Of a DNA stretch of 26,813 bases, positions 1,034 through 26,763 are shown one piece after another; within the stretch, counting starts at the first letter, position 1, and every line of letters begins with the position of its first letter. The position numbers and the translations under genes are program-made. Source of the stretch: a virus; the UHGV virus genome UHGV-0083306, one strand, 5' to 3'. The notes under the pieces are model-generated. The model was not told where the DNA came from. It searched no databases and was given only the letters and a program-made list of their open reading frames with translations.

Positions 1034-3235
1034 TTACTGCTGTGGTTGTTGCTGAGTTGATTTTTGCAGGATGCTGCTGATGTCCATGCGCTGCGCATGG
1101 CCCTGTGCCTGACTTTTCAGGACAAGCTCCGCATCAGCACGGGCATTGTCTCCTTGCTGTTGCTGGAACTGTCCGAGCAGTTTCAGAGCCTCGCGGATAT
1201 CAGATTTCTGCTGGCTATCGGCAGATGCGAGGATTTTCACAACATTTGCCGCTGCAACCTGAGCATCAGTCTGTGCCTGGAATGCTTTAACCTGAATGGC
1301 TGCCTGTTCGTTCTGCGCTTTCTGCAATTCAGCCTGACCAGCAAGAAGCTGACCTTGCGCAGCAACCATAGCCGGATCCGGCTGACTGGCCTGTTGTTGT
1401 TTCGCCTGCTCAACCATCTGCTGTTCTTCTGGTGTTCTCGGCTTAATAACGCCAGACAGAAGCAACTGATTGCGGTTGTATTCTTTAAGGTCGTCCATCC
1501 CTTCGCCGTCCATATTGTCGAGAATCATCGACGATACAAGGTCATGCTTCGGCGTTCCTGGCGGGATAAGTGCCAGCATGGAAAGCAACGACTTAACCGT
1601 TGCATCACGGCGAGTAGCGAACGACTGACCGACATCGACAGTCACTTCATAGTTACCCTGCGAAAGGTCGTTAAGCGCGATAACCTTCCCTGTCTGACGG
1701 TCAACCACTTCACCAGTCATCAGCGCCACGTCATCGCTGCCATCCTCATTAACGATGCGCATTGGCGTATCGCTGCCATAGACTTCACGAGCCATAGAAA
1801 GCCACACGACGCCAGCACGGCGCATGGATTTAGCCATGTTGTCCATGTAGATATAGGACTGCGTGTCCATCCGGTTAAAGATGCTATCAACGGTATCGGT
1901 AGCGACGTTGCTCGGCATGTTCTCAAGCTGCGACGCACCTGTAATTTGCTGAATAGCCGTTCCGGTGTACTGCAATAGCCCGGCAAGAGCAGGAGGCATT
2001 TGTGTCGGAGGTGTCCAGCCAGCAACCTGAGCCTCTGAAATGACCGTTCCGTTTTTGTCCTTCTTGCTGGTCATGGGAAGAACTGCAGGTCTTTTCTTAT
2101 TCCTCTCTGCCCAGTGATTCATTAATGGACCGGGAATGAAATCAACATCCACGATAGGAATGCCATCACCGCCAGCCTGAGTAGCATTATCTGCAATCAT
2201 GGAAACCATCAGGTTCTCAAGACGCTGTGCATCCATCGCTTTTGCTGCGTGGCCTTCGATTCGCTCCTGATTATCAACAAATGAACGACGCCCATATACC
2301 GGGATGAGAGGAATATGTTCGCCCGGAATACGCTTCGGTTCTTCCAGCCATTCAGCGCCAGACAGAAGACCGCAATAAACTCGGCGTTTCTTCACCGTTC
2401 GCTCGCCAATCAGTTCGAATGCACCATCGGTCAGCTCGTCGACAATATCTTTGATTTGCTCTTCATCATAGATTGCCGTTTCTCCGCTGACAGGGTTACG
2501 CCATGCTGTGAGCTTCACCTTCTCTATGCGGACTTCGTAGTAGCGTCCAACATAGATGGCATCTGGCGTTGACCAGTCATATTGAGTGCCAGTGTCATCA
2601 CGAGAAAGGCTTGCCGCGATGGAATCAGGGTATTCAGCCTCGAACGCTTTAGGCGTCATGGAGAACATTTCCATAGCCCACATAGCATCAGAACGGTCAT
2701 ATTGCTTGCTGTCCTGATCGAAGAAGACGCATGTCGCTGGGTCGTAAACAGGAAGAAGGCTGATGCGTCGCTGCTCGTTACTCGGATCCATTTCATCTTC
2801 GTAATCGGCACACATGCGGAAACAACCGAATCCGCCCGTTACAGCATCATCAAATGCGTTATCACACGCTTCGCCACCGGATGTTTCCTGATAGTCAGCG
2901 CGGAATTTGCCGTTCATCTTTTCGGCTAACGCTTCCGATGCCTTATCGTCCTTCGGCCTGAATTTAACGCTGATGCGATTCTGTCGATACTCGCCAATGA
3001 TGCGATCACATTCACGGGCAATCTTATTCAATTCAAAACGCGGATAATGCTCGAACCTGCCTTCATCAAATGAGTAACCAGCGTTTGTGCTGCCTTCCCA
3101 CTGTGCGCCGGACACCCGGACGAAACGTTGAGCCTCAATAATCTGCTCACGCATATCCTGCGTTGCTGACCAGGCATTATCAAAGTTGCACAGCACCTTG
3201 CGATGCCAGTCAGTCATCTTTCTATCATCAGCCAT
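1034..3235 (-). CDS. portal protein (P22 gp1-like)
   Basis: ~733-aa ORF; C-terminal region (PEEQQ…DPAMV…GQAEL.KAQN…RMDI..ILQ) resembles the P22 portal barrel. Start taken at MADDRK (3235), which overlaps the terminase stop by 1 nt; the ORF track begins at 3250. Confidence 0.8.
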   Translation of the reverse strand: MADDRKMTDWHRKVLCNFDNAWSATQDMREQIIEAQRFVRVSGAQWEGSTNAGYSFDEGRFEHYPRFELNKIARECDRIIGEYRQNRISVKFRPKDDKASEALAEKMNGKFRADYQETSGGEACDNAFDDAVTGGFGCFRMCADYEDEMDPSNEQRRISLLPVYDPATCVFFDQDSKQYDRSDAMWAMEMFSMTPKAFEAEYPDSIAASLSRDDTGTQYDWSTPDAIYVGRYYEVRIEKVKLTAWRNPVSGETAIYDEEQIKDIVDELTDGAFELIGERTVKKRRVYCGLLSGAEWLEEPKRIPGEHIPLIPVYGRRSFVDNQERIEGHAAKAMDAQRLENLMVSMIADNATQAGGDGIPIVDVDFIPGPLMNHWAERNKKRPAVLPMTSKKDKNGTVISEAQVAGWTPPTQMPPALAGLLQYTGTAIQQITGASQLENMPSNVATDTVDSIFNRMDTQSYIYMDNMAKSMRRAGVVWLSMAREVYGSDTPMRIVNEDGSDDVALMTGEVVDRQTGKVIALNDLSQGNYEVTVDVGQSFATRRDATVKSLLSMLALIPPGTPKHDLVSSMILDNMDGEGMDDLKEYNRNQLLLSGVIKPRTPEEQQMVEQAKQQQASQPDPAMVAAQGQLLAGQAELQKAQNEQAAIQVKAFQAQTDAQVAAANVVKILASADSQQKSDIREALKLLGQFQQQQGDNARADAELVLKSQAQGHAQRMDISSILQKSTQQQPQQ

Positions 3236-4731
3236 CATCCAACTCCGCAAGGTATGTTGTAGCTTGAGTAATCAATCTCTTTAGGATCTTTGATGTCTCG
3301 CATCTGTATTGCAAAACGCCTCATCATGTAGCCATAGCGAACAGCAGAAAGGATGTCGTCATTTAGCTTGACGATCTTCCCGTTCTCATCGCGGTGATAC
3401 AGGCGAAACTCTTCAAAGAATGGCTCGCAGGTGTTAAATACCTTGAAACGACCGTCGAGCATCATGTCGCGTATCTCTGCTATCCCGGGTTCGACCGCAT
3501 TACCTCCATCAGGCCATGTTGCATGATCTGGCAACATATCGAACCCAGCGTCGGCGTATTGTTCCTTGAGCTGAGCGCCGCCTCCCTTTTCGTGCTGATG
3601 CCCGTCATGAGGCCAAGCCGTAGGGGTGTTTTTGCTCCATGCTTTAACAGCACTCCATGCCTCTGTCGCCTTCTTCTGTTTGGCCTTCCAGACGCGAGAA
3701 AGATAAATCACGTCCTCGTCTTTATCCCACCAAAGCTGGATGTGTGCCTGTGGGTGATCCCATCCGAAGTCCATTGCATTGATGACGTAGAAGTGATCAG
3801 GACACTCGAACGGCTGACACTTAATAGTCTCTTCCGGTATCTGGAAGATTCGACCACTACCCATCGTAGGAATACCGCGAGCACGCGCCTCTCTCTCATG
3901 CTCAGGATAGGATGCGATGATTTGCTCTTTCTGCTCGTCGGTATAGTGCTCAGCGTCATAGATGGTCATGTTGACCACTTTCTGCGACTTGCTGGGATTC
4001 TTCAGGAACTTGGTAACAACGTCAGACATCCCCATCAGCGGGGTAAACGTCAGAATTGAGAATTGCCCGTATTTGTTGGTACGGGTAAGACCTTCGCCAT
4101 AAATGCTGTATGGTGGCTCTTCGTCAAACCACACGCCGTGGATTGTGTCACCCTGCCAGCGAGCGCGGCCTTGCGAGTATGGTTTGAAGTAGCAGATTGA
4201 AATGCCATCTTCAACGCCATCAGTCGTGTGATGCTTAACCAGAAGATGATCAACAAGGTTCGGAAAGAAAGGAGACTTCTTCCAGCTAATGATGTCCTCT
4301 TTCGGTATTGAACCGTAGCCCGGCTCATCATTCTCTTCAATACGACCGCACAGGATGCGTTGAGTCGTTTTGGTTACCGTCTCGTTTGTCTCGCCGCCAA
4401 TCCAGAAGACAACAGGCTCATAGAAACGCTTACCTTTCCACTCACCGCCATATTTACCATCAGCAGGATAGCCTTTTGTGCCCGGATAACGCCCGGTAAG
4501 GTGAAACGCGACTTCAGCAGCACCAGTAAATGACTTACCAAGCTGGTTACCAGCCATAAAACAGCGCTCTGGATAGTCATGTCCGGCGTCGATGAACTCA
4601 CGCTGTTTGCTGTATGGCGTAAATTCATATAGCAGGTGTGTGTTCCGGTAGTTCTCTTCTTCTTCGAGTAGCTCGAGCAACTCGATTTGCTCTTCGTCGC
4701 TCAGGTTATCAAGAATCGCGTCCAGTTCCAC
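3235..4731 (-). CDS. terminase large subunit (P22 gp2-like)
   Basis: 498-aa ORF; N-terminus [29 protein letters not shown] and overall length match remembered P22 gp2; position between small terminase and portal. Confidence 0.88.
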
Positions 4732-5197
4732 GGTTGAATAGCTCCTTGATACGAGAGCGCCGCTTATCGCGATCTCCCTTATCAGGTGTCACGTCTTCAA
4801 CTTGCGACTGCTCTTTGAGGCCCAAATCACGGGCGATGATGTTAGCGTTGAGAAGGTCAGCGGCTGCGCCAGAGAATTTCTGGTCGTAGATGATGTCTTC
4901 CGCTCGTGATGTGACGTCAGAAAAACCTTCCATTGACCGGAAGGTTCCCCATGTTTGCCTGGTGATATCAAGGAAGGTACACAATCCTGAAATAGTCATG
5001 GCTCGCATCTTAGGGACATTAGCCTTAATTATTTCTCCCTGATATGAAAATACCTTACCCTCCCATAGCGGGTTATCATCAGCCCACTCGAAGTATTCAC
5101 AACAAGCAGCCCACAGCGCCTCAGGCGATTCGAATTTAGGATTTCGCCCATGACTACTGCGGGCCTCCCAAAATCGGTTGCCCTTTGGTGCTGCCAT
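4709..5197 (-). CDS. terminase small subunit (P22 gp3-like)
   Basis: 162-aa ORF starting [40 protein letters not shown], matching remembered P22 gp3; overlaps the start of the large subunit. Confidence 0.85.
4905..4930 (-). other. candidate pac site inside the small-terminase gene
   Basis: Coding-strand GAAGGTTTTTCTGACGTCACATCACG at codons 90-98, resembling the P22 pac sequence, which lies mid-gene 3 in P22. Confidence 0.4.
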
Positions 5198-16352: not shown

Positions 16353-16491
16353 GACCTTTCTCCTTCTGCATCAGCTTCACTTTTTCCAACTCAGCCCGGA
16401 ATCGACCAGGCTGCTTGAAGCTGGACAGGAAGCGATCACGTAGTATGTGTTTGTGAATTTTGTCCTGGTAAGGACTGAGTGGTTTTGTCAT
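16345..16491 (-). CDS. small basic ORF (48 aa) coupled to O
   Basis: [48 protein letters not shown]; strong SD GAGGAGG; start overlaps the upstream stop (TAATG) and the end overlaps the O start. Below the ORF-track cutoff. Confidence 0.35.
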
Positions 16492-16895
16492 TAAGCCTCC
16501 TCTACTTCGTAATCAGCGAAGTAACCAGTAGACATTTTTAAAAACCTTGATTCGGTGACTGTGTAAGCCTTCCTTCCTTTCCTCTCCTTGCCTTCAGGCT
16601 CTATGAGGTGGCACGAATAAATGATTCTGCGCTGCCAGTTGCCTGGCATTTCCACCACTGCCAGAACCTCAAGAATTCTCTTTCCTTCAGCATCAGCGGT
16701 GTAAAAACACTGATCACCATAACCACAATCGGCTGGCTCATAATTTTTGTGACAACCGCCAATCCAGCGCTCATCGGTATGCACGTTGCCGTCATAAGAC
16801 TGATAATCTGTGCATACGAAGATAAATGGATATACGGTTTCGAACTTGTCACCGGCCTTTATGCCGGTGTTTACTTGCTTGGTTTGTCCTGGCAT
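16491..16895 (-). CDS. hypothetical protein (134 aa) between cII and O
   Basis: Start at MPGQTKQ with SD AGGAG 5 nt upstream; the longer track ORF overlaps cII in another frame. Cys/His-rich (…[18 protein letters not shown]…CHLIEPEG); no family recognised. Confidence 0.5.
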
Positions 16896-16929
16896 AATTA
16901 CTCCTGTTACTTGGCGTAACACAGTGTGC

Positions 16930-17208
16930 TTAAGCGTCCAGACTGCTACCAACAGCTGGGCGTTTTTCTTTTGTGAGAATCGATGCCACCTGCTGAGCAA
17001 GTCTCGCCATCTCATCATCAACAACTCCCCATTCAAGAACAGCCAGAAGCATGGCCATCTTTGGGATAAAGCTGTCTTTCCATCGCGAAATTTGCGATTC
17101 ATTAATCCCTAACGCGTCGGCAACCTTTCGCTGACCACGTACAGCAATTCGATTCAGGATGTTGCTTGTAATTGCATTCGCTTTCTTGCGAGTACTTGTA
17201 AGTTGCAT
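16930..17208 (-). CDS. cII: transcriptional activator CII
   Basis: 92-aa ORF; …VADALGINESQISRWKDSFIPKMAMLLAVLEWGVVDDEMARLAQQVASILTKEKRPA closely matches lambda CII; upstream leader matches the lambda cII leader. Confidence 0.85.
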   Translation of the reverse strand: MQLTSTRKKANAITSNILNRIAVRGQRKVADALGINESQISRWKDSFIPKMAMLLAVLEWGVVDDEMARLAQQVASILTKEKRPAVGSSLDA

Positions 17209-17287
17209 ATGTAAGTATTTCCTTAGATAACAATTGATTGAATGTATGCAAATAAATGCATACACCATAGGTGTGGTTTAATTTGAT

Positions 17288-17319
17288 GCCCTTTTTCAGG
17301 GCTGGAATGTGTAAGAGCG
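17288..17319 (-). promoter_or_regulatory. nutR (boxA and boxB)
   Basis: Minus strand reads CGCTCTTACACATTCCAGCCCTGAAAAAGGGC, i.e. lambda boxA plus the nutR boxB hairpin, between cro and cII. Confidence 0.8.
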
Positions 17320-17327
17320 TTGATAAC

Positions 17328-17558
17328 TTAAGCAGCCATTAATTCAGGCCAGATGCTTTCCCAATCAACCGGATGAAGGTCTTTGCGAGTCACTTCACCA
17401 TTGCTGAACTTCTCAATCAGAACACAAAGTGCTGCGCCCAATTCATGATTACGGCTAAGTGCTTTCCTCAAATAGCCGATAGAAGTTCCGCACTTGGTGG
17501 CAAATTCTCTCTGCTCTTCCAGTGAAAGGGAGTTCAGATACAAGCGGAGTTCTTCCAT
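17328..17558 (-). CDS. cro: Cro-like repressor (HTH)
   Basis: 76-aa ORF divergent from the repressor gene, with an HTH-like segment (EEQREFATKCGTSIGYLRKA); not lambda Cro in sequence. Confidence 0.65.
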   Translation of the reverse strand: MEELRLYLNSLSLEEQREFATKCGTSIGYLRKALSRNHELGAALCVLIEKFSNGEVTRKDLHPVDWESIWPELMAA

Positions 17559-17590
17559 TTGCTATCTCCTTCCCGTTGTTGAATAAGGTG

Positions 17591-17660
17591 AGTTTACCTG
17601 CAGGTAAAAAACAAATCAATACCCACAGGTTATTTACCGATAGGTAATCAAAGATAGAAT
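17591..17660. promoter_or_regulatory. right operator/promoter region: OR1-OR3, pR, pRM
   Basis: Operators TTACCTGCAGGTAA (17594-17607), ATACCCACAGGTTA (17619-17632), TTACCGATAGGTAA (17634-17647). pR on minus: -35 TTGATT 17614-17619, -10 TAAACT 17591-17596. pRM on plus: -10 TAGAAT 17655-17660, 6 nt before the cI ATG. Confidence 0.55.
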
Positions 17661-17666
17661 TAAATC

Positions 17667-18353
17667 ATGGATAAATACGAACAAAGACGACTAAGGCTGA
17701 TAGAGATAAGAGACCGATTCTGTAATGGAAAGGCCTCAGAGTTGGCTCGTCGAATAGAAAGGGAACCATCATACGTTTCCAGAATGCTGTATCCGGAAGG
17801 AAAAAGCGGAAAAAAACGCATTGCTGACGATATGATGGAACTAATTGAAAAATCTTTTAATCTCCCACGCGGATGGATGGACATGCTTGCAGATAGCAAA
17901 GTTGGATCTGCAGACCATCTTGAGTTTGCGGGTAACGTTCGTGCGGGTTTTGTTCCGGTAATTGGTGAAGCCGTTTTGGGAGTTGATGGCTCAGTGGATA
18001 TGATTGAATTCAGATCCGGTTGGTTAAGCATCTACAGTGGCGATAAAGATGCTTACGGTCTGAAGGTTAAGGGTGACAGCATGTGGCCAAGGATTCAGTC
18101 AGGAGAATATGTTGTTATTGAACCAAATACGCCAGTACATCCAGGTGATGAAGTCTTTGTAAGGACCAAAGATGGTCATAACATGATAAAGATCATGAAC
18201 AAAACAAGAGACGGAGACTATCAGTTTAGTAGTATAAACAGCGATCACCGTCCAATCACTCTTCCTGTTGAAGAAGTTGATAAAATGCATTTTGTTTCAG
18301 CTATTGTGAAACACACTAGGTACGTAGACCAGGACGATCTGCCAAAATTTTGA
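17667..18353 (+). CDS. cI: CI-like repressor (HTH + S24 LexA-type autopeptidase)
   Basis: 228-aa ORF; N-terminal HTH (ASELARRIEREPSYVSRML), Ala-Gly in the linker (EFAGNV), C-terminal S24 motifs (KVKGDSMWPRI, …MIKIMNK). Immunity specificity is not lambda's. Confidence 0.85.
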   Translation: MDKYEQRRLRLIEIRDRFCNGKASELARRIEREPSYVSRMLYPEGKSGKKRIADDMMELIEKSFNLPRGWMDMLADSKVGSADHLEFAGNVRAGFVPVIGEAVLGVDGSVDMIEFRSGWLSIYSGDKDAYGLKVKGDSMWPRIQSGEYVVIEPNTPVHPGDEVFVRTKDGHNMIKIMNKTRDGDYQFSSINSDHRPITLPVEEVDKMHFVSAIVKHTRYVDQDDLPKF

Positions 18354-18367
18354 GGATAAAGCAGCAA

Positions 18368-18664
18368 ATGTTTATACCAGGTATAGTGGTCGCTGTTGTA
18401 ATCATCTGCTTCATATGGGCAAAGTTATCTCCTGTAAGCTCTAAGCATACAGCTGAACTCATGAAGAAGAAGCATCTTATACATGAGGCAGAAACGATAA
18501 TTAAGAAGTTCAAAGGCATGTCATATGACGACATGTCATCAGATCAGATTGCTATGTATAAATGCGCCATTGAGCGTCTTGACTACTTAAACGGACTCAA
18601 ACCCAAACACACCCCGGTAGAATCAAAATTGCCGCAATGGCCAAGCAATCCAAATAGCTTCTGA
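18368..18664 (+). CDS. small membrane-anchored protein downstream of cI (rex position)
   Basis: 98 aa from ATG 18368 (SD GAGGA); N-terminal hydrophobic helix (MFIPGIVVAVVIICFIWA); same strand as cI and followed by a terminator. Confidence 0.5.
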   Translation: MFIPGIVVAVVIICFIWAKLSPVSSKHTAELMKKKHLIHEAETIIKKFKGMSYDDMSSDQIAMYKCAIERLDYLNGLKPKHTPVESKLPQWPSNPNSF

Positions 18665-18675
18665 CATCTCCTTTC

Positions 18676-18697
18676 AGCCCGCAAAGCGGGCTTTTTT
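18676..18697 (+). terminator. intrinsic terminator ending the cI operon
   Basis: AGCCCGC AAA GCGGGCT followed by TTTTT. Confidence 0.65.
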
Positions 18698-18717
18698 ATA
18701 TCAATCCAAAAAATTAA

Positions 18718-18802
18718 TTACCTGAAAATTCAAACAGGTAAACTCTCACACCAATTTTATTTACCTGCAGGTATAGACAACAGTTTTACCTGTAGGTATA
18801 TT
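18718..18802 (+). promoter_or_regulatory. left operator/promoter region: OL sites and pL
   Basis: TTACCTGCAGGTAT (18761-18774) and TTACCTGTAGGTAT (18786-18799), plus a wider inverted repeat TTACCTG-N10-CAGGTAA (18718-18741). pL: -35 TAGACA 18774-18779, 17-bp spacer, -10 TATATT 18797-18802; transcript then lambda-like (ATCAGCAGGACGCAC…). Confidence 0.55.
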
Positions 18803-18842
18803 TTAAGCCATCAGCAGGACGCACTAACCACCATGAAGGTGA

Positions 18843-18873
18843 GGCTCTTAAAAATTTAGCCCTGAAGAAGGGC
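18843..18873 (+). promoter_or_regulatory. nutL (boxA-like and boxB)
   Basis: GGCTCTTAAAAATTTAGCCCTGAAGAAGGGC: boxA with one mismatch, then the lambda nutL boxB hairpin GCCCTGAAGAAGGGC. Confidence 0.8.
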
Positions 18874-19141
18874 AGCATTCAAAGCAGAAGGCTTTGGGGT
18901 GTGGTGAAGCCAGCTAGTCACTGGCAAGTGCTTACCTACTGTTGAGCGGTGAAGCGCTCCCAACGCTAGCAATAGCGTGGACGAGATGGGGAGCCGCGGG
19001 CGATAAGGCCGCCATAACGCGCACGTTGTCGCATGGAAAAATCACTGGGGTGCCGGTTATACCCCTCCGAATGAGACTCAACAAGCTGGAGCTAGACTAC
19101 CAGCCACCACACCACCAAAGCTAACTGACAGGAGAATCCAG

Positions 19142-19474
19142 ATGGATGCACAAACACGCCGCCGCGAACGTCGCGCAGAGAAACAGGCTCAATGGAAAGC
19201 AGCAAATCCCCTGTTAGTTGGGGTAAGCGCCAAGCCAGACACCCGCAAAATTCTCTCGCTGACTCGAAAGCCTAAATCACGCGTAGAAAGCGCTCTGAAC
19301 CCGATTGATTTAACGGTGCTGGCTGAGTATCGGGAAGAGATGGAAAAACGCGCTGAAGCTGTTGAGCGCAAGAATCATCGCACATGGTACAGCAAGCCAC
19401 GCAGTGAAATGGGGGTGACTTGTGTTGGTCGCCAGAAAATGAAATTAGGCAGTAAGCTACTGTATGAGGGGTGA
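19142..19474 (+). CDS. N: antiterminator N (lambda-type arginine-rich motif)
   Basis: 110-aa ORF; MDAQTRRRERRAEKQAQWKAANPLLVGVSAKP… matches the lambda N N-terminus; C-terminus diverges. Confidence 0.85.
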   Translation: MDAQTRRRERRAEKQAQWKAANPLLVGVSAKPDTRKILSLTRKPKSRVESALNPIDLTVLAEYREEMEKRAEAVERKNHRTWYSKPRSEMGVTCVGRQKMKLGSKLLYEG

Positions 19475-19477
19475 GAT

Positions 19478-19666
19478 ATGCATAAATGTCAGTTCTGTGG
19501 ATACATGTTTGAATCAAATGAAATGCAACGTATTTCGTTAAACCTTATCGGTAGGCCATACAACATTTGCCTAGGATGTAGCGAGAAATACAAAAACAAA
19601 GACATGTGGGACGACAATAAAAACGATATCGACTGGAATAAAGTGCCATGTATTGATGATAGTTAA
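19478..19666 (+). CDS. small zinc-ribbon protein (62 aa)
   Basis: Two CxxC pairs (CQFCG…CLGCS); good SD GAGGGGTGAG; immediately after N. Confidence 0.5.
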   Translation: MHKCQFCGYMFESNEMQRISLNLIGRPYNICLGCSEKYKNKDMWDDNKNDIDWNKVPCIDDS

Positions 19667-19676
19667 AAATAATTAT

Positions 19677-19728
19677 GCCGCATAGTCGGCCTTCTTTTGG
19701 CATAAACAACAGAATAAACACTGCACTG
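19677..19728 (+). repeat. direct repeat copy 1 (hairpin + GGCATAAACAACAGAATAAACAC)
   Basis: About 52 bp nearly identical to 19915-19969; begins with a short GCCG…CGGC hairpin and a T-run. Confidence 0.6.
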
Positions 19729-19746
19729 AATTATTTGAGGTGAAAT

Positions 19747-19914
19747 ATGGAAATTGAAATACCAGACAGCTTCGACCCTGAATGGCAAGCAATGATGCTT
19801 CGCCAGTTAGCTGGGAACATTGAGGCACTTAAAAATCGAGAAGATGAACCTGACGAACTACTTATCGACTGCGAGGAAATTATCGAATCTCTTCGCGAAT
19901 ATTCAGGATTTTAA
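19747..19914 (+). CDS. small acidic ORF (55 aa) flanked by the direct repeats
   Basis: MEIEIPDSFDPEWQAMMLRQLAGNIEALKNREDEPDELLIDCEEIIESLREYSGF; SD GAGGTGA 7 nt upstream; below the ORF-track cutoff. Confidence 0.4.
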   Translation: MEIEIPDSFDPEWQAMMLRQLAGNIEALKNREDEPDELLIDCEEIIESLREYSGF

Positions 19915-19969
19915 GGCCGAATAGTCGGCCTTTATTTTTGGCATAAACAACAGAATAAACACAGCACTG
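19915..19969 (+). repeat. direct repeat copy 2, with terminator-like hairpin
   Basis: GGCCGA ATAG TCGGCC + TTTATTTTTGG, then GCATAAACAACAGAATAAACACAGCACTG; an 8-bp inverted repeat (TGTATTCA…TGAATACA) follows at 19970-19995. Confidence 0.6.
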
Positions 19970-20058
19970 TGTATTCATTCCAACGAGTGAATACACGGAG
20001 CAATGTCGCTCGTAACTAAACAGGAGCCGACTTGTTCTGATTATTGGAAATCTTCTTT

Positions 20059-20084
20059 GCCCTCCGATGTGAGGGCCTTTTTAT
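20059..20084 (+). terminator. intrinsic terminator within the early-left operon
   Basis: GCCCTC CGATGT GAGGGC followed by CTTTTTAT. Confidence 0.6.
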
Positions 20085-20148
20085 ATGCATATCAATAACG
20101 CTTCACTTGAGGCGTTTTCGTTATGCAATCAAACAGAAGGAGCATCCT

Positions 20149-20319
20149 ATGCAACAGTTCGCTATTGCAGGGGCGGCATCGGTTCGCCCTTTCAACCCGA
20201 TTTTATCGGTACAGCATTCACGAAAAAATATTTTAACCGGAGCAGACTTTAAACAACCAAGAATGAAAAGTTTGCTCGAAAAGCTTTGGGATATTTTGAA
20301 ACAACAAGGCCGTCCATGA
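20149..20319 (+). CDS. cIII: CIII-like protein (putative FtsH inhibitor)
   Basis: 56 aa from ATG 20149 (SD AAGGAG, 6-nt spacing): MQQFAIAGAASV…KSLLEKLWDILKQQGRP, resembling lambda CIII (MQYAIAG…ESLLERI…LIDILNQPG). Confidence 0.5.
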   Translation: MQQFAIAGAASVRPFNPILSVQHSRKNILTGADFKQPRMKSLLEKLWDILKQQGRP

Positions 20320-25470: not shown

Positions 25471-25496
25471 TTGCGTGTAATTGCGGAGACTTTGCG

Positions 25497-25715
25497 ATGT
25501 ACTTGACACTTCAGGAGTGGAACGCACGCCAGCGACGCCCAAGAAGCCTTGAAACAGTTCGTCGATGGGTACGCGAGTGCAGGATATTCCCTCCTCCGGT
25601 TAAGGATGGAAGAGAGTATCTGTTCCACGAATCAGCGGTAAAGGTTGACTTAAATCGACCAGTAACAGGTAGCCTTTTGAAGAGGATCAGAAATGGGAAG
25701 AAGGCGAAGTCATGA
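25497..25715 (+). CDS. xis: excisionase Xis (lambda)
   Basis: 72-aa ORF MYLTLQEWNARQRRPRSLETVRRWVRECRIFPPPVKDGREYLFHESAVKVDLNRPVTG… matches lambda Xis; overlaps int. Confidence 0.92.
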   Translation: MYLTLQEWNARQRRPRSLETVRRWVRECRIFPPPVKDGREYLFHESAVKVDLNRPVTGSLLKRIRNGKKAKS

Positions 25716-26763
25716 GCGCCGGGATTTACCCCCTAACCTTTATATAAGAAACAATGGATATTACTGCTACAGGGACCCAAGGACGGGTAAAGAGTTTGGA
25801 TTAGGCAGAGACAGGAGGATAGCAATTACTGAAGCAATACAGGCAAACATTGAGTTATTTTCAGGACACAAACACAAGCCTCTGACAGCGAGAATCAACA
25901 GTGATAATTCTGTTACGTTACATTCATGGCTTGATCGCTACGAAAAAATCCTCGCCAGCAGAGGAATCAAGCAGAAGACACTCATAAATTACATGAGCAA
26001 AATTAAAGCAATAAGGAGGGGTCTGCCTGATGCTCCACTTGAAGACATCACCACAAAAGAAATTGCGGCAATGCTCAATGGATACATAGACGAGGGCAAG
26101 GCGGCATCAGCCAAGTTAATCAGATCAACACTGAGCGATGCATTCCGAGAGGCAATAGCTGAAGGCCATATAACAACAAACCCGGTCGCTGCCACTCGCG
26201 CAGCAAAATCAGAGGTAAGGAGATCAAGGCTTACGGCTGACGAATACCTGAAAATTTATCAAGCAGCAGAATCATCACCATGTTGGCTCAGACTTGCAAT
26301 GGAACTGGCTGTTGTTACCGGGCAGCGAGTTGGTGATTTATGCGAAATGAAGTGGTCTGATATCGTAGATGGATATCTTTATGTCGAGCAAAGCAAAACG
26401 GGCGTAAAAATTGCCATACCTACAACATTGCATGTTGATGCTCTCGGGATATCAATGAAGGAAACACTTGATAAATGCAAAGAGATTCTTGGCGGAGAAA
26501 CCATAATTGCATCTACTCGTCGTGAACCGCTTTCATCCGGCACAGTATCAAGGTATTTTATGCGCGCACGAAAAGCATCAGGTCTTTCCTTCGAAGGGGA
26601 TCCGCCTACCTTTCACGAGTTGCGCAGTTTGTCTGCAAGACTCTATGAGAAGCAGATAAGCGATAAGTTTGCTCAACATCTTCTCGGGCATAAGTCGGAC
26701 ACCATGGCATCACAGTATCGTGATGACAGAGGCAGGGAGTGGGACAAAATTGAAATCAAATAA
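25693..26763 (+). CDS. int: integrase (lambda Int, tyrosine recombinase)
   Basis: 356-aa ORF MGRRRSHERRDLPPNLYIRNNGYYCYRDPRTGKEFGLGRDRR… matching lambda Int throughout. Confidence 0.95.
   Translation: MGRRRSHERRDLPPNLYIRNNGYYCYRDPRTGKEFGLGRDRRIAITEAIQANIELFSGHKHKPLTARINSDNSVTLHSWLDRYEKILASRGIKQKTLINYMSKIKAIRRGLPDAPLEDITTKEIAAMLNGYIDEGKAASAKLIRSTLSDAFREAIAEGHITTNPVAATRAAKSEVRRSRLTADEYLKIYQAAESSPCWLRLAMELAVVTGQRVGDLCEMKWSDIVDGYLYVEQSKTGVKIAIPTTLHVDALGISMKETLDKCKEILGGETIIASTRREPLSSGTVSRYFMRARKASGLSFEGDPPTFHELRSLSARLYEKQISDKFAQHLLGHKSDTMASQYRDDRGREWDKIEIK

What the first reader, a model, noticed from the sequence alone, without database searches (positions are those of the whole stretch)
18368..18697. 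Lysogen-expressed small membrane protein downstream of cI, in the rexAB position
A 98-aa single-pass membrane protein lies on the cI strand between cI and an intrinsic terminator, so it should be co-transcribed from pRM in lysogens. In lambda this slot holds the rexA/rexB exclusion system, so the gene is a candidate superinfection-exclusion or lysogenic-conversion factor.
Basis: inference. Interest (0 to 1): 0.55.

Follow-up and report, generated by a model that had tools for sequence, protein, structure and literature searches.

The report
Small membrane gene in repressor operon
A real but uncharacterised 98-residue membrane-anchored protein is encoded just after the prophage repressor gene, and because its distant relatives sit in the slot where phage P22 keeps its exclusion gene sieA, it is a good untested candidate for a protein that shields the lysogen from other phages.

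Summary
A 98-codon ORF (18368-18664, +) starts 14 nt after the S24-type cI repressor (17667-18353). It has a GAGGA ribosome-binding site. A conserved intrinsic terminator (18676-18698) follows it, just before OL/PL and a lambda-type N gene.

It is a real gene:
- It is intact in all 31 copies examined.
- pN/pS is 0.18 in its frame.
- Relatives at 30-43% identity share one architecture: an uncharged N-terminal membrane helix, then a basic helical hairpin with invariant L37, I38, E40, A41, M56, C66, A67 and L71.

The family is phrog_10450 (unknown function). It has no Pfam, NCBIfam, PADLOC, PDB or fold match, and it is not homologous to RexA/B, P22 SieA or 434 Hex.

New here: the family occupies two prophage slots. 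One lies downstream of a cI lineage, in three anciently diverged immunity types. The other is the sieA slot of P22-like prophages, convergent with ejection gene 16 and downstream of mnt.

The protein evolves about five times faster than cI or Cro. Predicted topology is N-out, C-in.

Best reading: a prophage-encoded inner-membrane protection factor. Expression and function are inferred, not shown. Moderate interest.

The parts
17162..17175 (+). CII-box TTGCTTGTAATTGC (PRE -35 region), pointing towards cI and the small ORF
   Evidence: Pattern search. The same feature is annotated in mEp043. A role as PRE is inferred by analogy with lambda.
17594..17647 (.). OR operators: TTACCTGCAGGTAA (17594), ATACCCACAGGTTA (17619), TTACCGATAGGTAA (17634)
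   Evidence: 15 matches to TTACC-N4-GGTAA in the window against 6.9 expected. The exact and near-exact ones cluster at OR and OL. Sequence read.
17633..17660 (+). PRM-like promoter (TTTACC, 16 nt, TAGAAT). The -10 hexamer ends 6 nt before the cI ATG, which implies a leaderless cI mRNA as in lambda.
   Evidence: Promoter scan and sequence. Consensus match only; activity not shown.
17667..18353 (+). cI repressor, 228 aa, S24 autocleavage domain
   Evidence: PF00717, E 1.4e-17; phrog_4. 97% identical to the mEp043 repressor region.
18352..18356 (+). Shine-Dalgarno GAGGA overlapping the cI stop codon, 11 nt before the ATG
   Evidence: Read from sequence. The 14-nt gap between cI and the ORF is invariant in 22 haplotypes.
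18368..18664 (+). 98-aa ORF (stop included), member of phrog_10450
18368..18427 (+). N-terminal membrane anchor (residues 1-20, MFIPGIVVAVVIICFIWAKL)
   Evidence: Hydropathy. AlphaFold2 helix at residues 5-20. All 11 family members have 17-32 uncharged N-terminal residues; in 10 of them the next 20 residues are net positive, and in P0024 they are +5/-5.
18428..18661 (+). Basic C-terminal domain (pI about 9), predicted cytoplasmic. Helices at residues 23-47 and 58-75, with invariant L37, I38, E40, A41, M56, C66, A67 and L71 and near-invariant S52, R70, L74, H81, W91 and P92.
   Evidence: Alignments A1 and A2. AlphaFold2 model: mean pLDDT 77, and 84-89 over residues 31-70. Charge analysis.
18676..18698 (+). 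Intrinsic terminator placed like lambda's post-rexB terminator: AGCCCGC-AAA-GCGGGCT plus T6
   Evidence: No variable site in 22 haplotypes.
18761..18802 (.). OL operators (18761-18774 and 18786-18799) and a PL-like promoter (TAGACA, 17 nt, TATATT; 18774-18802)
   Evidence: Annotated as putative PL in mEp043.
19142..19474 (+). N antiterminator, the first PL gene. It marks the end of the immunity region.
   Evidence: (PF11438, E 9e-23).

Best explanation
The ORF is a genuine gene and the last cistron of the prophage's repressor operon: PRM/PRE, then cI, then the ORF, then a terminator.

It encodes a small inner-membrane protein. The protein is anchored by an uncharged N-terminal helix, with about 78 basic, mostly helical residues predicted to face the cytoplasm (N-out, C-in).

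Its most likely role is to protect the lysogen against incoming phages at the inner membrane. It would interfere with the step that carries phage DNA across that membrane, by binding either the incoming phage's membrane conduit or a host inner-membrane factor that the conduit needs.

Shown here: the gene is real, its placement, its conservation, its family, and the second slot.

Inferred: expression in lysogens, topology, and the protective function and its mechanism.
For: Gene reality
- The ORF is intact in 31/31 copies, and 12 of 19 variable sites are at codon position 3 (p = 0.007).
- pN/pS is 0.18, against 0.10 for cI.
- Homologues at 30-43% identity keep the length, the N-terminal helix and a conserved core. 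All fall in phrog_10450.

Operon placement
- The gap after cI is 14 nt, with a GAGGA ribosome-binding site and no intervening promoter or terminator.
- A conserved terminator lies 12 nt after the stop codon.
- PRM, OR, OL and PL are arranged as in lambda.

Linkage to the repressor
- Exactly the same number of complete E. coli genomes, 52 of 5426, carry the ORF and this cI allele.
- The module rides in siphovirus genomes (mEp043, ECONIH4) and in P22-like genomes (the window, LR-25).
- Two further immunity types have cI and Cro 82-90% identical to the window's. Each keeps a family member directly after cI, although synonymous sites are saturated.

Second slot
- In P22-like prophages of E. coli, Salmonella and E. 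fergusonii, and in phages N7 and HZ41, family members lie immediately convergent with ejection gene 16 and downstream of the mnt/arc/ant region. This is where P22 has sieA.
- This clade is present in 62 of 5426 E. coli genomes.
- No type-A SieA is detected in those loci.

Fast protein evolution
- dN is 0.58-0.66 for the ORF against 0.09-0.13 for cI and cro over the same divergence. This fits an antagonistic interface.

Topology
- All 11 members lack any charge before the helix.
- In 10 of them the 20 residues that follow are net positive; in P0024 they are +5/-5.
- Most have only one conserved cysteine in the soluble domain.
Against: - No expression or phenotype data exist for any member, and no paper mentions the gene.
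- There is no sequence or fold similarity to any characterised exclusion or defence protein. The functional call therefore rests on position alone.
- Slot cargo is not always an exclusion factor. 434 Hex, in the same slot, protects the repressor from RecA-stimulated cleavage (PMC3564112). A Hex homologue also turns up in a sieA slot.
- Rapid protein divergence could reflect weak constraint rather than an arms race.
- One copy, from Cronobacter turicensis (L040), has a frameshifted C-terminus.
- NCBI's PGAP pipeline leaves the ORF unannotated in nearly all RefSeq genomes listed.
- A cytoplasmic domain is unusual for exclusion proteins that act on periplasmic phage parts.
Confidence: 0.45

Rival explanations
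1. The protein is a modulator of lysogeny rather than a defence factor. Co-expressed with cI, it would tune prophage stability or induction. It might dampen RecA-stimulated repressor cleavage, as 434 Hex does, or help the lysogenic-to-lytic transition, as recently proposed for RexA and RexB.
For: - It has the same operon position as hex in phage 434, which is annotated downstream of cI on the PRM transcript.
- It is strictly linked to one cI lineage across three immunity types.
- In the sieA-slot clade it lies downstream of another lysogeny-maintenance repressor, Mnt, with no promoter-like site of its own found in N7 or L046.
- The soluble domain is predicted to be cytoplasmic, where cI and RecA are.
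- A preprint assigns Rex proteins a switch-related role (10.1101/2021.04.19.439022, listed).
Against: - It is not homologous to Hex (hhalign probability 0.6%).
- The sieA-slot relatives accompany quite different repressor systems, so a cI-specific partner is unlikely.
- The protein diverges about five times faster than cI and Cro, which is unexpected for a partner co-adapted to a conserved repressor.
- Membrane anchoring has no obvious role in this model.
Confidence: 0.15
2. The protein is an abortive-infection effector. The single-pass protein would oligomerise in the inner membrane and, when an infection cue reaches its cytoplasmic domain, depolarise or permeabilise the cell. It would act like RexB without a separate sensor.
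For: - It is in the rex position.
- It has a small membrane anchor plus a conserved cytoplasmic helical hairpin that could serve as a sensor or oligomerisation domain.
- It evolves fast.
- A membrane-anchored, prophage-encoded abortive-infection protein is known in Staphylococcus aureus (PMC10127798, abstract seen).
Against: - There is no partner gene.
- It has one short hydrophobic helix with no polar face.
- It has no similarity to RexB, SieB or any PADLOC model.
- Constitutive expression of a pore-former from PRM would need tight control, and no such control is visible.
Confidence: 0.12
3. The gene is a lysogenic-conversion factor unrelated to phages. As a small inner-membrane regulator, it would alter a host transporter, protease or envelope function and so change host fitness, for example in nutrient uptake or stress tolerance.
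For: - Its size, single helix and cytoplasmic tail resemble small membrane-protein regulators.
- Prophage small proteins that act on inner-membrane transporters exist, for example DicB acting on ManYZ (PMC6832061, abstract seen).
- About 2% of complete E. coli genomes carry a family member, many of them human isolates.
Against: - Both slots are best known for phage-directed cargo (Rex, SieA).
- The family is confined to lambdoid and P22-like prophages, and only 10 cluster representatives score E <= 0.001 among 1.84 billion.
- Fast sequence divergence argues against a conserved host target, although DicB shows that the two roles can coincide.
Confidence: 0.15
4. The ORF is a non-functional or decaying open reading frame, kept open by chance or by constraints on the DNA or RNA between cI and the terminator.
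For: - PGAP does not call it in most RefSeq genomes.
- G+C is low at 41%.
- One antisense frame gives an equally low pN/pS.
- One relative is frameshifted.
Against: - Homologues at 30-43% identity are conserved at the protein level, in two unrelated genomic contexts and several genera.
- There are invariant residues, the length is conserved, and the ORF is intact in 31/31 copies.
- The antisense frame is open for only 72 codons.
Confidence: 0.03

Closest known systems
Lambda rexA-rexB (Rex exclusion system)
   Same: Same slot and same logic. It lies downstream of cI on the cI strand, upstream of OL/PL, and is closed by a terminator, so it would be expressed with the repressor from PRM and PRE. 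Position tested. The lambda side is established knowledge.
   Different: Rex is two genes: a cytoplasmic sensor, RexA, and a four-helix membrane protein, RexB. Here there is one 98-aa protein with one helix. No sequence similarity was found (Pfam scan to E = 1).
P22 SieA (types A-C; Leavitt et al. 2024, PMC10883804)
   Same: SieA is a prophage-expressed inner-membrane protein. Distant relatives of the window protein occupy exactly its slot, convergent with gene 16 and between gene 16 and the tailspike gene. SieA's best-conserved motif is also predicted to be on the cytoplasmic side.
   Different: SieA is 162-164 aa or longer with three or four membrane helices and the motif FxRYPxEAxxFNK. This family is about 100 aa with one helix and lacks the motif. 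hhalign probability is 0.9%. The window copy is in the immunity region, not the sieA slot.
Phage 434 Hex
   Same: It is a single gene directly after cI on the PRM transcript. Like this family, Hex has a relative in the sieA slot of a P22-like prophage (27% identity, E 3e-11).
   Different: It is unrelated in sequence. Hex has a signal-peptide-like N-terminus with a basic n-region, whereas this protein has an uncharged anchor. Hex is reported to protect the repressor from RecA-stimulated cleavage.
Single-pass or small membrane exclusion proteins of other phages (HK97 gp15, T4 Imm and Sp, lactococcal Sie2009)
   Same: These are small, membrane-anchored proteins made by the resident phage that block DNA entry. 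Several are encoded next to the repressor. This comparison rests on recalled knowledge and was not tested here.
   Different: No homology was detected in the Pfam, PHROG or PADLOC scans. Several of these proteins expose their functional domain to the periplasm or exterior, whereas this one is predicted to face the cytoplasm.
phrog_10450
   Same: Full-length match (E 1e-55, residues 1-98 against a 98-position profile). All relatives tested fall in the same family.
   Different: The family has no assigned function, so membership gives a name and no function.

Membership tests
phrog_10450 (unknown function) | Full-length match to the family HMM | tested here: met
   E 1e-55, residues 1-98 against profile positions 1-98 of 98. 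Five divergent relatives match with E 1e-24 to 1e-52.
Lambda RexA/RexB | Located downstream of cI in the PRM operon and closed by a terminator before OL/PL | tested here: met
   This tests position only; transcription was not measured.
Lambda RexA/RexB | Two-component system: a RexA sensor plus a four-helix RexB membrane protein | tested here: not met
   A single ORF with one hydrophobic segment. Only 14 nt separate it from cI, and only 12 nt separate it from the terminator.
Lambda RexA/RexB | Sequence homology to RexA or RexB | tested here: not met
   No Rex family among Pfam hits up to E = 1. No PADLOC hit up to E = 10.
P22 SieA | Sequence homology, including the motif FxRYPxEAxxFNK | tested here: not met
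   hhalign probability 0.9%. The motif was confirmed in P22 SieA and is not in the window protein sequence. Only type A was compared directly.
P22 SieA | Three or more membrane helices and about 162 aa or more | tested here: not met
   98 aa with one helix. SieA description taken from PMC10883804.
P22 SieA | Gene lies between gene 16 and gene 9 of a P22-like prophage | tested here: inconclusive
   Met by the distant homologues. Not met by the window copy, which is in the immunity region of a P22-like prophage.
P22 SieA | Blocks DNA injection by P22-like phages | not testable with these tools
   Needs plating and K+ efflux assays.
434 Hex | Sequence homology to Hex | tested here: not met
   hhalign probability 0.6%.
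Secreted or lipoprotein exclusion factors (Cor, Llp, Ltp type) | Sec signal peptide with a basic n-region, or a lipobox cysteine | tested here: not met
   No charged residue precedes the hydrophobic segment in any of 11 members, and there is no L-[AS]-[GA]-C lipobox (by sequence inspection). No dedicated predictor such as SignalP was available.
Known anti-phage defence systems (PADLOC-DB v2) | Match to any component model | tested here: not met
   No family matched at E <= 10, for both the 98-aa and the 104-aa versions.

The most novel reading that the evidence does not exclude
phrog_10450 would be a previously unrecognised family of inner-membrane superinfection-exclusion proteins. It would substitute for SieA in P22-like prophages and for Rex in one lineage of lambdoid immunity regions.

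Its cytoplasm-facing helical hairpin would block the inner-membrane end of the phage DNA-delivery conduit (gp16/gp20-type ejection proteins), or a host factor that the conduit needs, such as YajC. Its rapid divergence would track variation in those phage proteins.

A corollary is that the rex slot and the sieA slot are interchangeable docking sites for the same pool of lysogen-expressed cargo. The Hex homologue found in a sieA slot also suggests this.
Probability: 0.3. Interest if true: 0.6.

Novelty: new variant of a known kind. Interest (0 to 1): 0.45.

Why it matters
Prophage genes expressed with the repressor decide which other phages can infect a lysogen. They therefore shape phage host range, prophage competition and the outcome of phage therapy.

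This family is present in about 2% of complete E. coli genomes (52 plus 62 of 5426). It is usually annotated as hypothetical or not annotated at all.

Its presence in both the rex slot and the sieA slot gives a concrete, cheap hypothesis to test. Phage mEp043 is a cultured K-12 phage that carries the gene, and phage N7 carries the other clade.

If it is protective, it adds a new minimal type of inner-membrane exclusion protein, with one helix and a cytoplasmic domain. It would also give a handle on the poorly understood inner-membrane step of DNA delivery.

If it instead tunes lysogeny, it extends the Hex and Rex story of repressor-operon passengers.

Tried and rejected
Searches with no informative result
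- Pfam, NCBIfam and PADLOC scans gave no significant match.
- The weak PHROG hits phrog_1077 'transcriptional regulator' (E 0.003) and phrog_10423 were not pursued. They are far weaker than phrog_10450, and the five relatives tested did not hit them at E <= 0.01.
- A PDB sequence-profile search gave only designed helical filaments at E > 1.
- Foldseek against BFVD gave nothing at E <= 0.001.
- The afdb50 library was unavailable.
- Rfam found no RNA family in 17200-20200. The only hit scored 29 bits against a gathering threshold of 51.

Searches that failed or found little
- The search for related loci with the alignment failed because the alignment had no stretch conserved enough.
- The genome-contig scan with P0006 returned only a 17-residue fragment.
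- P0009 gave nothing in viral contigs.
- P0008's locus (L033) is a rearranged prophage remnant next to type VI secretion genes and was not used as evidence.

Ideas rejected
- That the window comes from E. coli ECONIH4. The immunity region is 100% identical, but that prophage is a lambda-like siphovirus, whereas the window has a P22-type portal and terminase.
- The TTG start at 18350, because relatives begin at the position equivalent to 18368.
- A cleavable signal peptide or lipoprotein.
- Similarity to the YobH-family protein in the LR-25 sieA slot.
- A YajC-mimic idea rests only on similar size and topology, recalled from memory. Nothing tested supports it beyond the absence of a YajC family among the Pfam hits.

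Literature
- Searches for mEp043, the protein accession, the locus tag and the PHROG number found nothing about this gene.

Full report
**What is there**

The window is a lambdoid prophage whose + strand corresponds to lambda's leftward direction. Around the finding the order is:
- CII (16930-17268, -; PF05269) and Cro (17328-17558, -)
- an operator/promoter region
- a 228-aa S24-peptidase repressor, cI (17667-18353, +; PF00717, E 1.4e-17)
- the small ORF (18368-18664, +)
- a hairpin followed by a T-run (18676-18698)
- a second operator/promoter region
- a lambda-type N gene (19142-19474, +; PF11438, E 9e-23)

The ORF is 98 codons from ATG 18368. A GAGGA sits 11 nt upstream and overlaps the cI stop codon.

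The terminator is a 7-bp stem with 6 G-C pairs plus U6, at -12.6 kcal/mol (z = -3.6).

Operators of the form TTACC-N4-GGTAA cluster at 17594, 17619 and 17634 (OR) and at 18761 and 18786 (OL).

A promoter-like site (TTTACC, 16 nt, TAGAAT) ends 6 nt before the cI ATG and overlaps the operator nearest cI. This is the lambda PRM arrangement, including a leaderless cI message. A CII box at 17162-17175 marks a PRE-like promoter that points the same way.

Nothing resembling a promoter or a terminator lies between cI and the ORF.

**Is it a gene?**

The immunity region is that of coliphage mEp043 (97.3% identity). There the ORF is mEp043_049, 'hypothetical protein'.

Among 5426 complete E. coli genomes, 52 carry the ORF and 52 carry this cI allele at full length. 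PGAP annotates the ORF in almost none of the genomes listed.

I collected 31 copies (the window, mEp043 and 29 IMG/VR contigs), which fall into 22 haplotypes.
- The ORF is intact in every copy.
- Of its 19 variable sites, 12 are at codon position 3 (binomial p = 0.007).
- Amino-acid changes are mostly conservative: K/R, D/E, T/S, M/I.
- pN/pS is 0.18, against 0.10 for cI and 8.6 and 1.2 for the other two forward frames.
- The 14-nt gap after cI and the terminator show no variation at all, whereas OL is the most variable stretch.

One antisense frame shares the wobble positions and gives the same low ratio, but it is open for only 72 codons.

Eight copies have GTG instead of ATG at 18368. All distant relatives begin M/V-[YFW]-I-[PS], so 18368 is the start, and the upstream TTG used in record PV340537 is not.

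**Family**

A word-indexed search of 5.8 billion proteins found only near-identical sequences. An exhaustive HMMER scan of 1.84 billion cluster representatives found ten hits at E <= 0.001, seven of them convincing at 31-43% identity. A profile search added more.

All share one design:
- roughly 100 residues (97-114)
- an uncharged N-terminal hydrophobic helix
- a basic soluble part with invariant L37, I38, E40, A41, M56, C66, A67 and L71
- near-invariant S52, R70, L74, H81, W91 and P92

Every member tested falls in phrog_10450, which has no known function.

Nothing matched in Pfam, NCBIfam, PADLOC or PDB sequences.

None of the 11 members has a charged residue before the hydrophobic segment. 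In 10 of them the following 20 residues are net positive, and in P0024 they are +5/-5. The soluble domain has a pI of about 9 and usually a single conserved cysteine. By the positive-inside rule this predicts N-out, C-in, and it argues against a cleaved signal peptide or a lipoprotein. This is a prediction; no dedicated topology tool was available.

**Two slots**

The informative result is where the relatives sit.

(i) Two further immunity types have a family member directly after a cI that is 83% identical to the window's. They are L037-L040, from E. coli and Cronobacter contigs, and L052, from an IMG/VR contig. In both, an N-like gene follows.

Synonymous sites are saturated between all three types in cI, cro and the ORF alike. 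The gene has therefore stayed with this repressor lineage through deep divergence. Over that same divergence its dN is 0.58-0.66, against 0.09-0.13 for cI and cro.

(ii) The other clade lies in P22-like prophages of E. coli, Salmonella and E. fergusonii and in phages N7 and HZ41. It is immediately convergent with ejection-protein gene 16 and downstream of the mnt/arc/ant immunity-I region. That is exactly where P22 carries sieA.

This clade is in 62 of 5426 E. coli genomes. In N7 and L046 no promoter-like site was found directly upstream of the gene. In N7 the only promoter-like site upstream precedes the mnt-like gene, so there it may be the last cistron of another lysogeny-maintenance operon.

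The family is not SieA:
- hhalign probability is 0.9%.
- It has one helix rather than three, and no FxRYPxEAxxFNK motif.
- No type-A SieA is present in those loci.

**Mosaicism**

The window's virion genes are P22-type: portal PF16510, gp3, and a T4-type large terminase. In contrast, mEp043 and the ECONIH4 prophage, which carry the same immunity region, are siphoviruses. The gene therefore travels with the immunity module and not with a virion type.

In E. coli LR-25, a P22-like prophage shares 60% of the window at 97% identity and carries the same immunity region. Its sieA slot holds other small genes, one of them a homologue of 434 Hex (27% identity, E 3e-11). Hex is the gene that follows cI in phage 434. 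This is a second, independent case of cargo shared between the two slots.

**Interpretation**

What is shown:
- The gene is real and under purifying selection.
- It is embedded in the repressor operon's architecture.
- It belongs to a small, enterobacterial, prophage-restricted family.
- That family has been placed repeatedly in two positions known for lysogen-expressed functions directed at other phages.

What is inferred: expression from PRM and PRE, membrane topology, and function.

I consider protection of the lysogen at the inner membrane the most likely function (about 0.45). A block to DNA entry is favoured over abortive infection, for four reasons:
- the slot-mates Rex and SieA
- membrane anchoring
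- a conserved cytoplasm-facing domain, reminiscent of SieA's cytoplasmic motif
- protein evolution about five times faster than that of the neighbouring regulators

The main rival is a lysogeny-tuning role like that of Hex (PMC3564112). It is made credible by the strict linkage to repressor genes. It is weakened by the family's association with two unrelated repressor systems and by its fast divergence.

A host-physiology role, as a small membrane-protein regulator, and abortive infection remain open. A spurious ORF is very unlikely.

**Comparison and novelty**

By position the gene works like rexAB, sieA and hex. By sequence and architecture it is a member of none of them (see the membership table). 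It is a member of phrog_10450.

It is therefore an uncharacterised family within a well-known kind of element, the repressor-operon passenger or moron. I found no publication that mentions it.

Interest is moderate. Nothing here overturns expectations. However, the two-slot distribution, and the existence of cultured phages that carry each clade, turn a 'hypothetical protein' into a directly testable candidate.

Noticed in passing
L045:9996-10364 (E. coli LR-25, sieA slot) and L053:1680-2084 (phage 434 hex): 434 Hex, the gene after cI in phage 434, has a 27%-identical homologue (BLASTP E 3e-11) in the sieA slot of a P22-like prophage. That prophage also carries the window's immunity region. 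This is a second example of the same cargo appearing in both the rex slot and the sieA slot.
   Followed up: partly
window 19677-19728 and 19916-19969: A 52-nt direct repeat made of a GC-rich hairpin, a T-run and a conserved TTTTGGCATAAACAACAGAATAAACAC. The two copies bracket a 55-aa ORF (19747-19914) in the PL operon, which looks like a small terminator-flanked cassette.
   Followed up: no
window 18719-18742: An inverted repeat, TTACCTG-N10-CAGGTAA, built from the operator half-sites but with a 10-nt spacer. It lies between the terminator and OL2. It is conserved in the diverged L037 immunity type as TTACCTGAAAATTCAATCAGGTAA. It could be a third OL site with unusual spacing or another regulatory element.
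   Followed up: no
window 18859-18873: GCCCTGAAGAAGGGC matches, from memory, the lambda nutL boxB hairpin. The scan reported it as a minus-strand terminator-like site. This fits the lambda-type N gene at 19142.
   Followed up: no
window 1034-5197 (-): The virion genes in the window are P22-type: a 738-aa portal (PF16510), a 498-aa large terminase and a 162-aa gp3 small terminase. Phage mEp043 and the ECONIH4 prophage, which carry the same immunity region, are lambda- or HK022-like siphoviruses. The immunity module is mosaic cargo.
   Followed up: yes
window 16491-17102 (-): An ORF lies between cII and the DUF2740 and O-like replication genes. It is listed as 203 aa, but its 5' part overlaps cII, so the real start is probably internal. 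It has no counterpart in the mEp043 map and no Pfam hit, and may be an inserted moron in the PR operon.
   Followed up: no
window 25471-25484: A second CII box, TTGCGTGTAATTGC, lies about 200 nt upstream of the integrase gene (25693-26763). This is consistent with a PI-type, CII-activated int promoter.
   Followed up: no
window 18368-18664 as found in RefSeq E. coli genomes (hits H31-H70): PGAP leaves the 98-aa ORF unannotated in nearly all of the genomes listed; only the neighbouring 'S24 family peptidase' appears under the match. The sieA-slot clade, by contrast, is annotated as 'hypothetical protein'.
   Followed up: partly
L040:4001-4210 (Cronobacter turicensis contig): This copy of the family gene after cI has a frameshifted C-terminus (...KKHSLRQKATRLAVKSSS...), which suggests decay in at least one lineage.
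   Followed up: no
L035:2196-2886 and L041:1530-2367: In some P22-like prophages, two other small genes lie between mnt and the family gene. In L035 these are a CxxC...CxxC zinc-ribbon-like protein and a protein with a C-terminal hydrophobic tail. The set varies between loci, so it does not look like an obligate partnership.
   Followed up: partly
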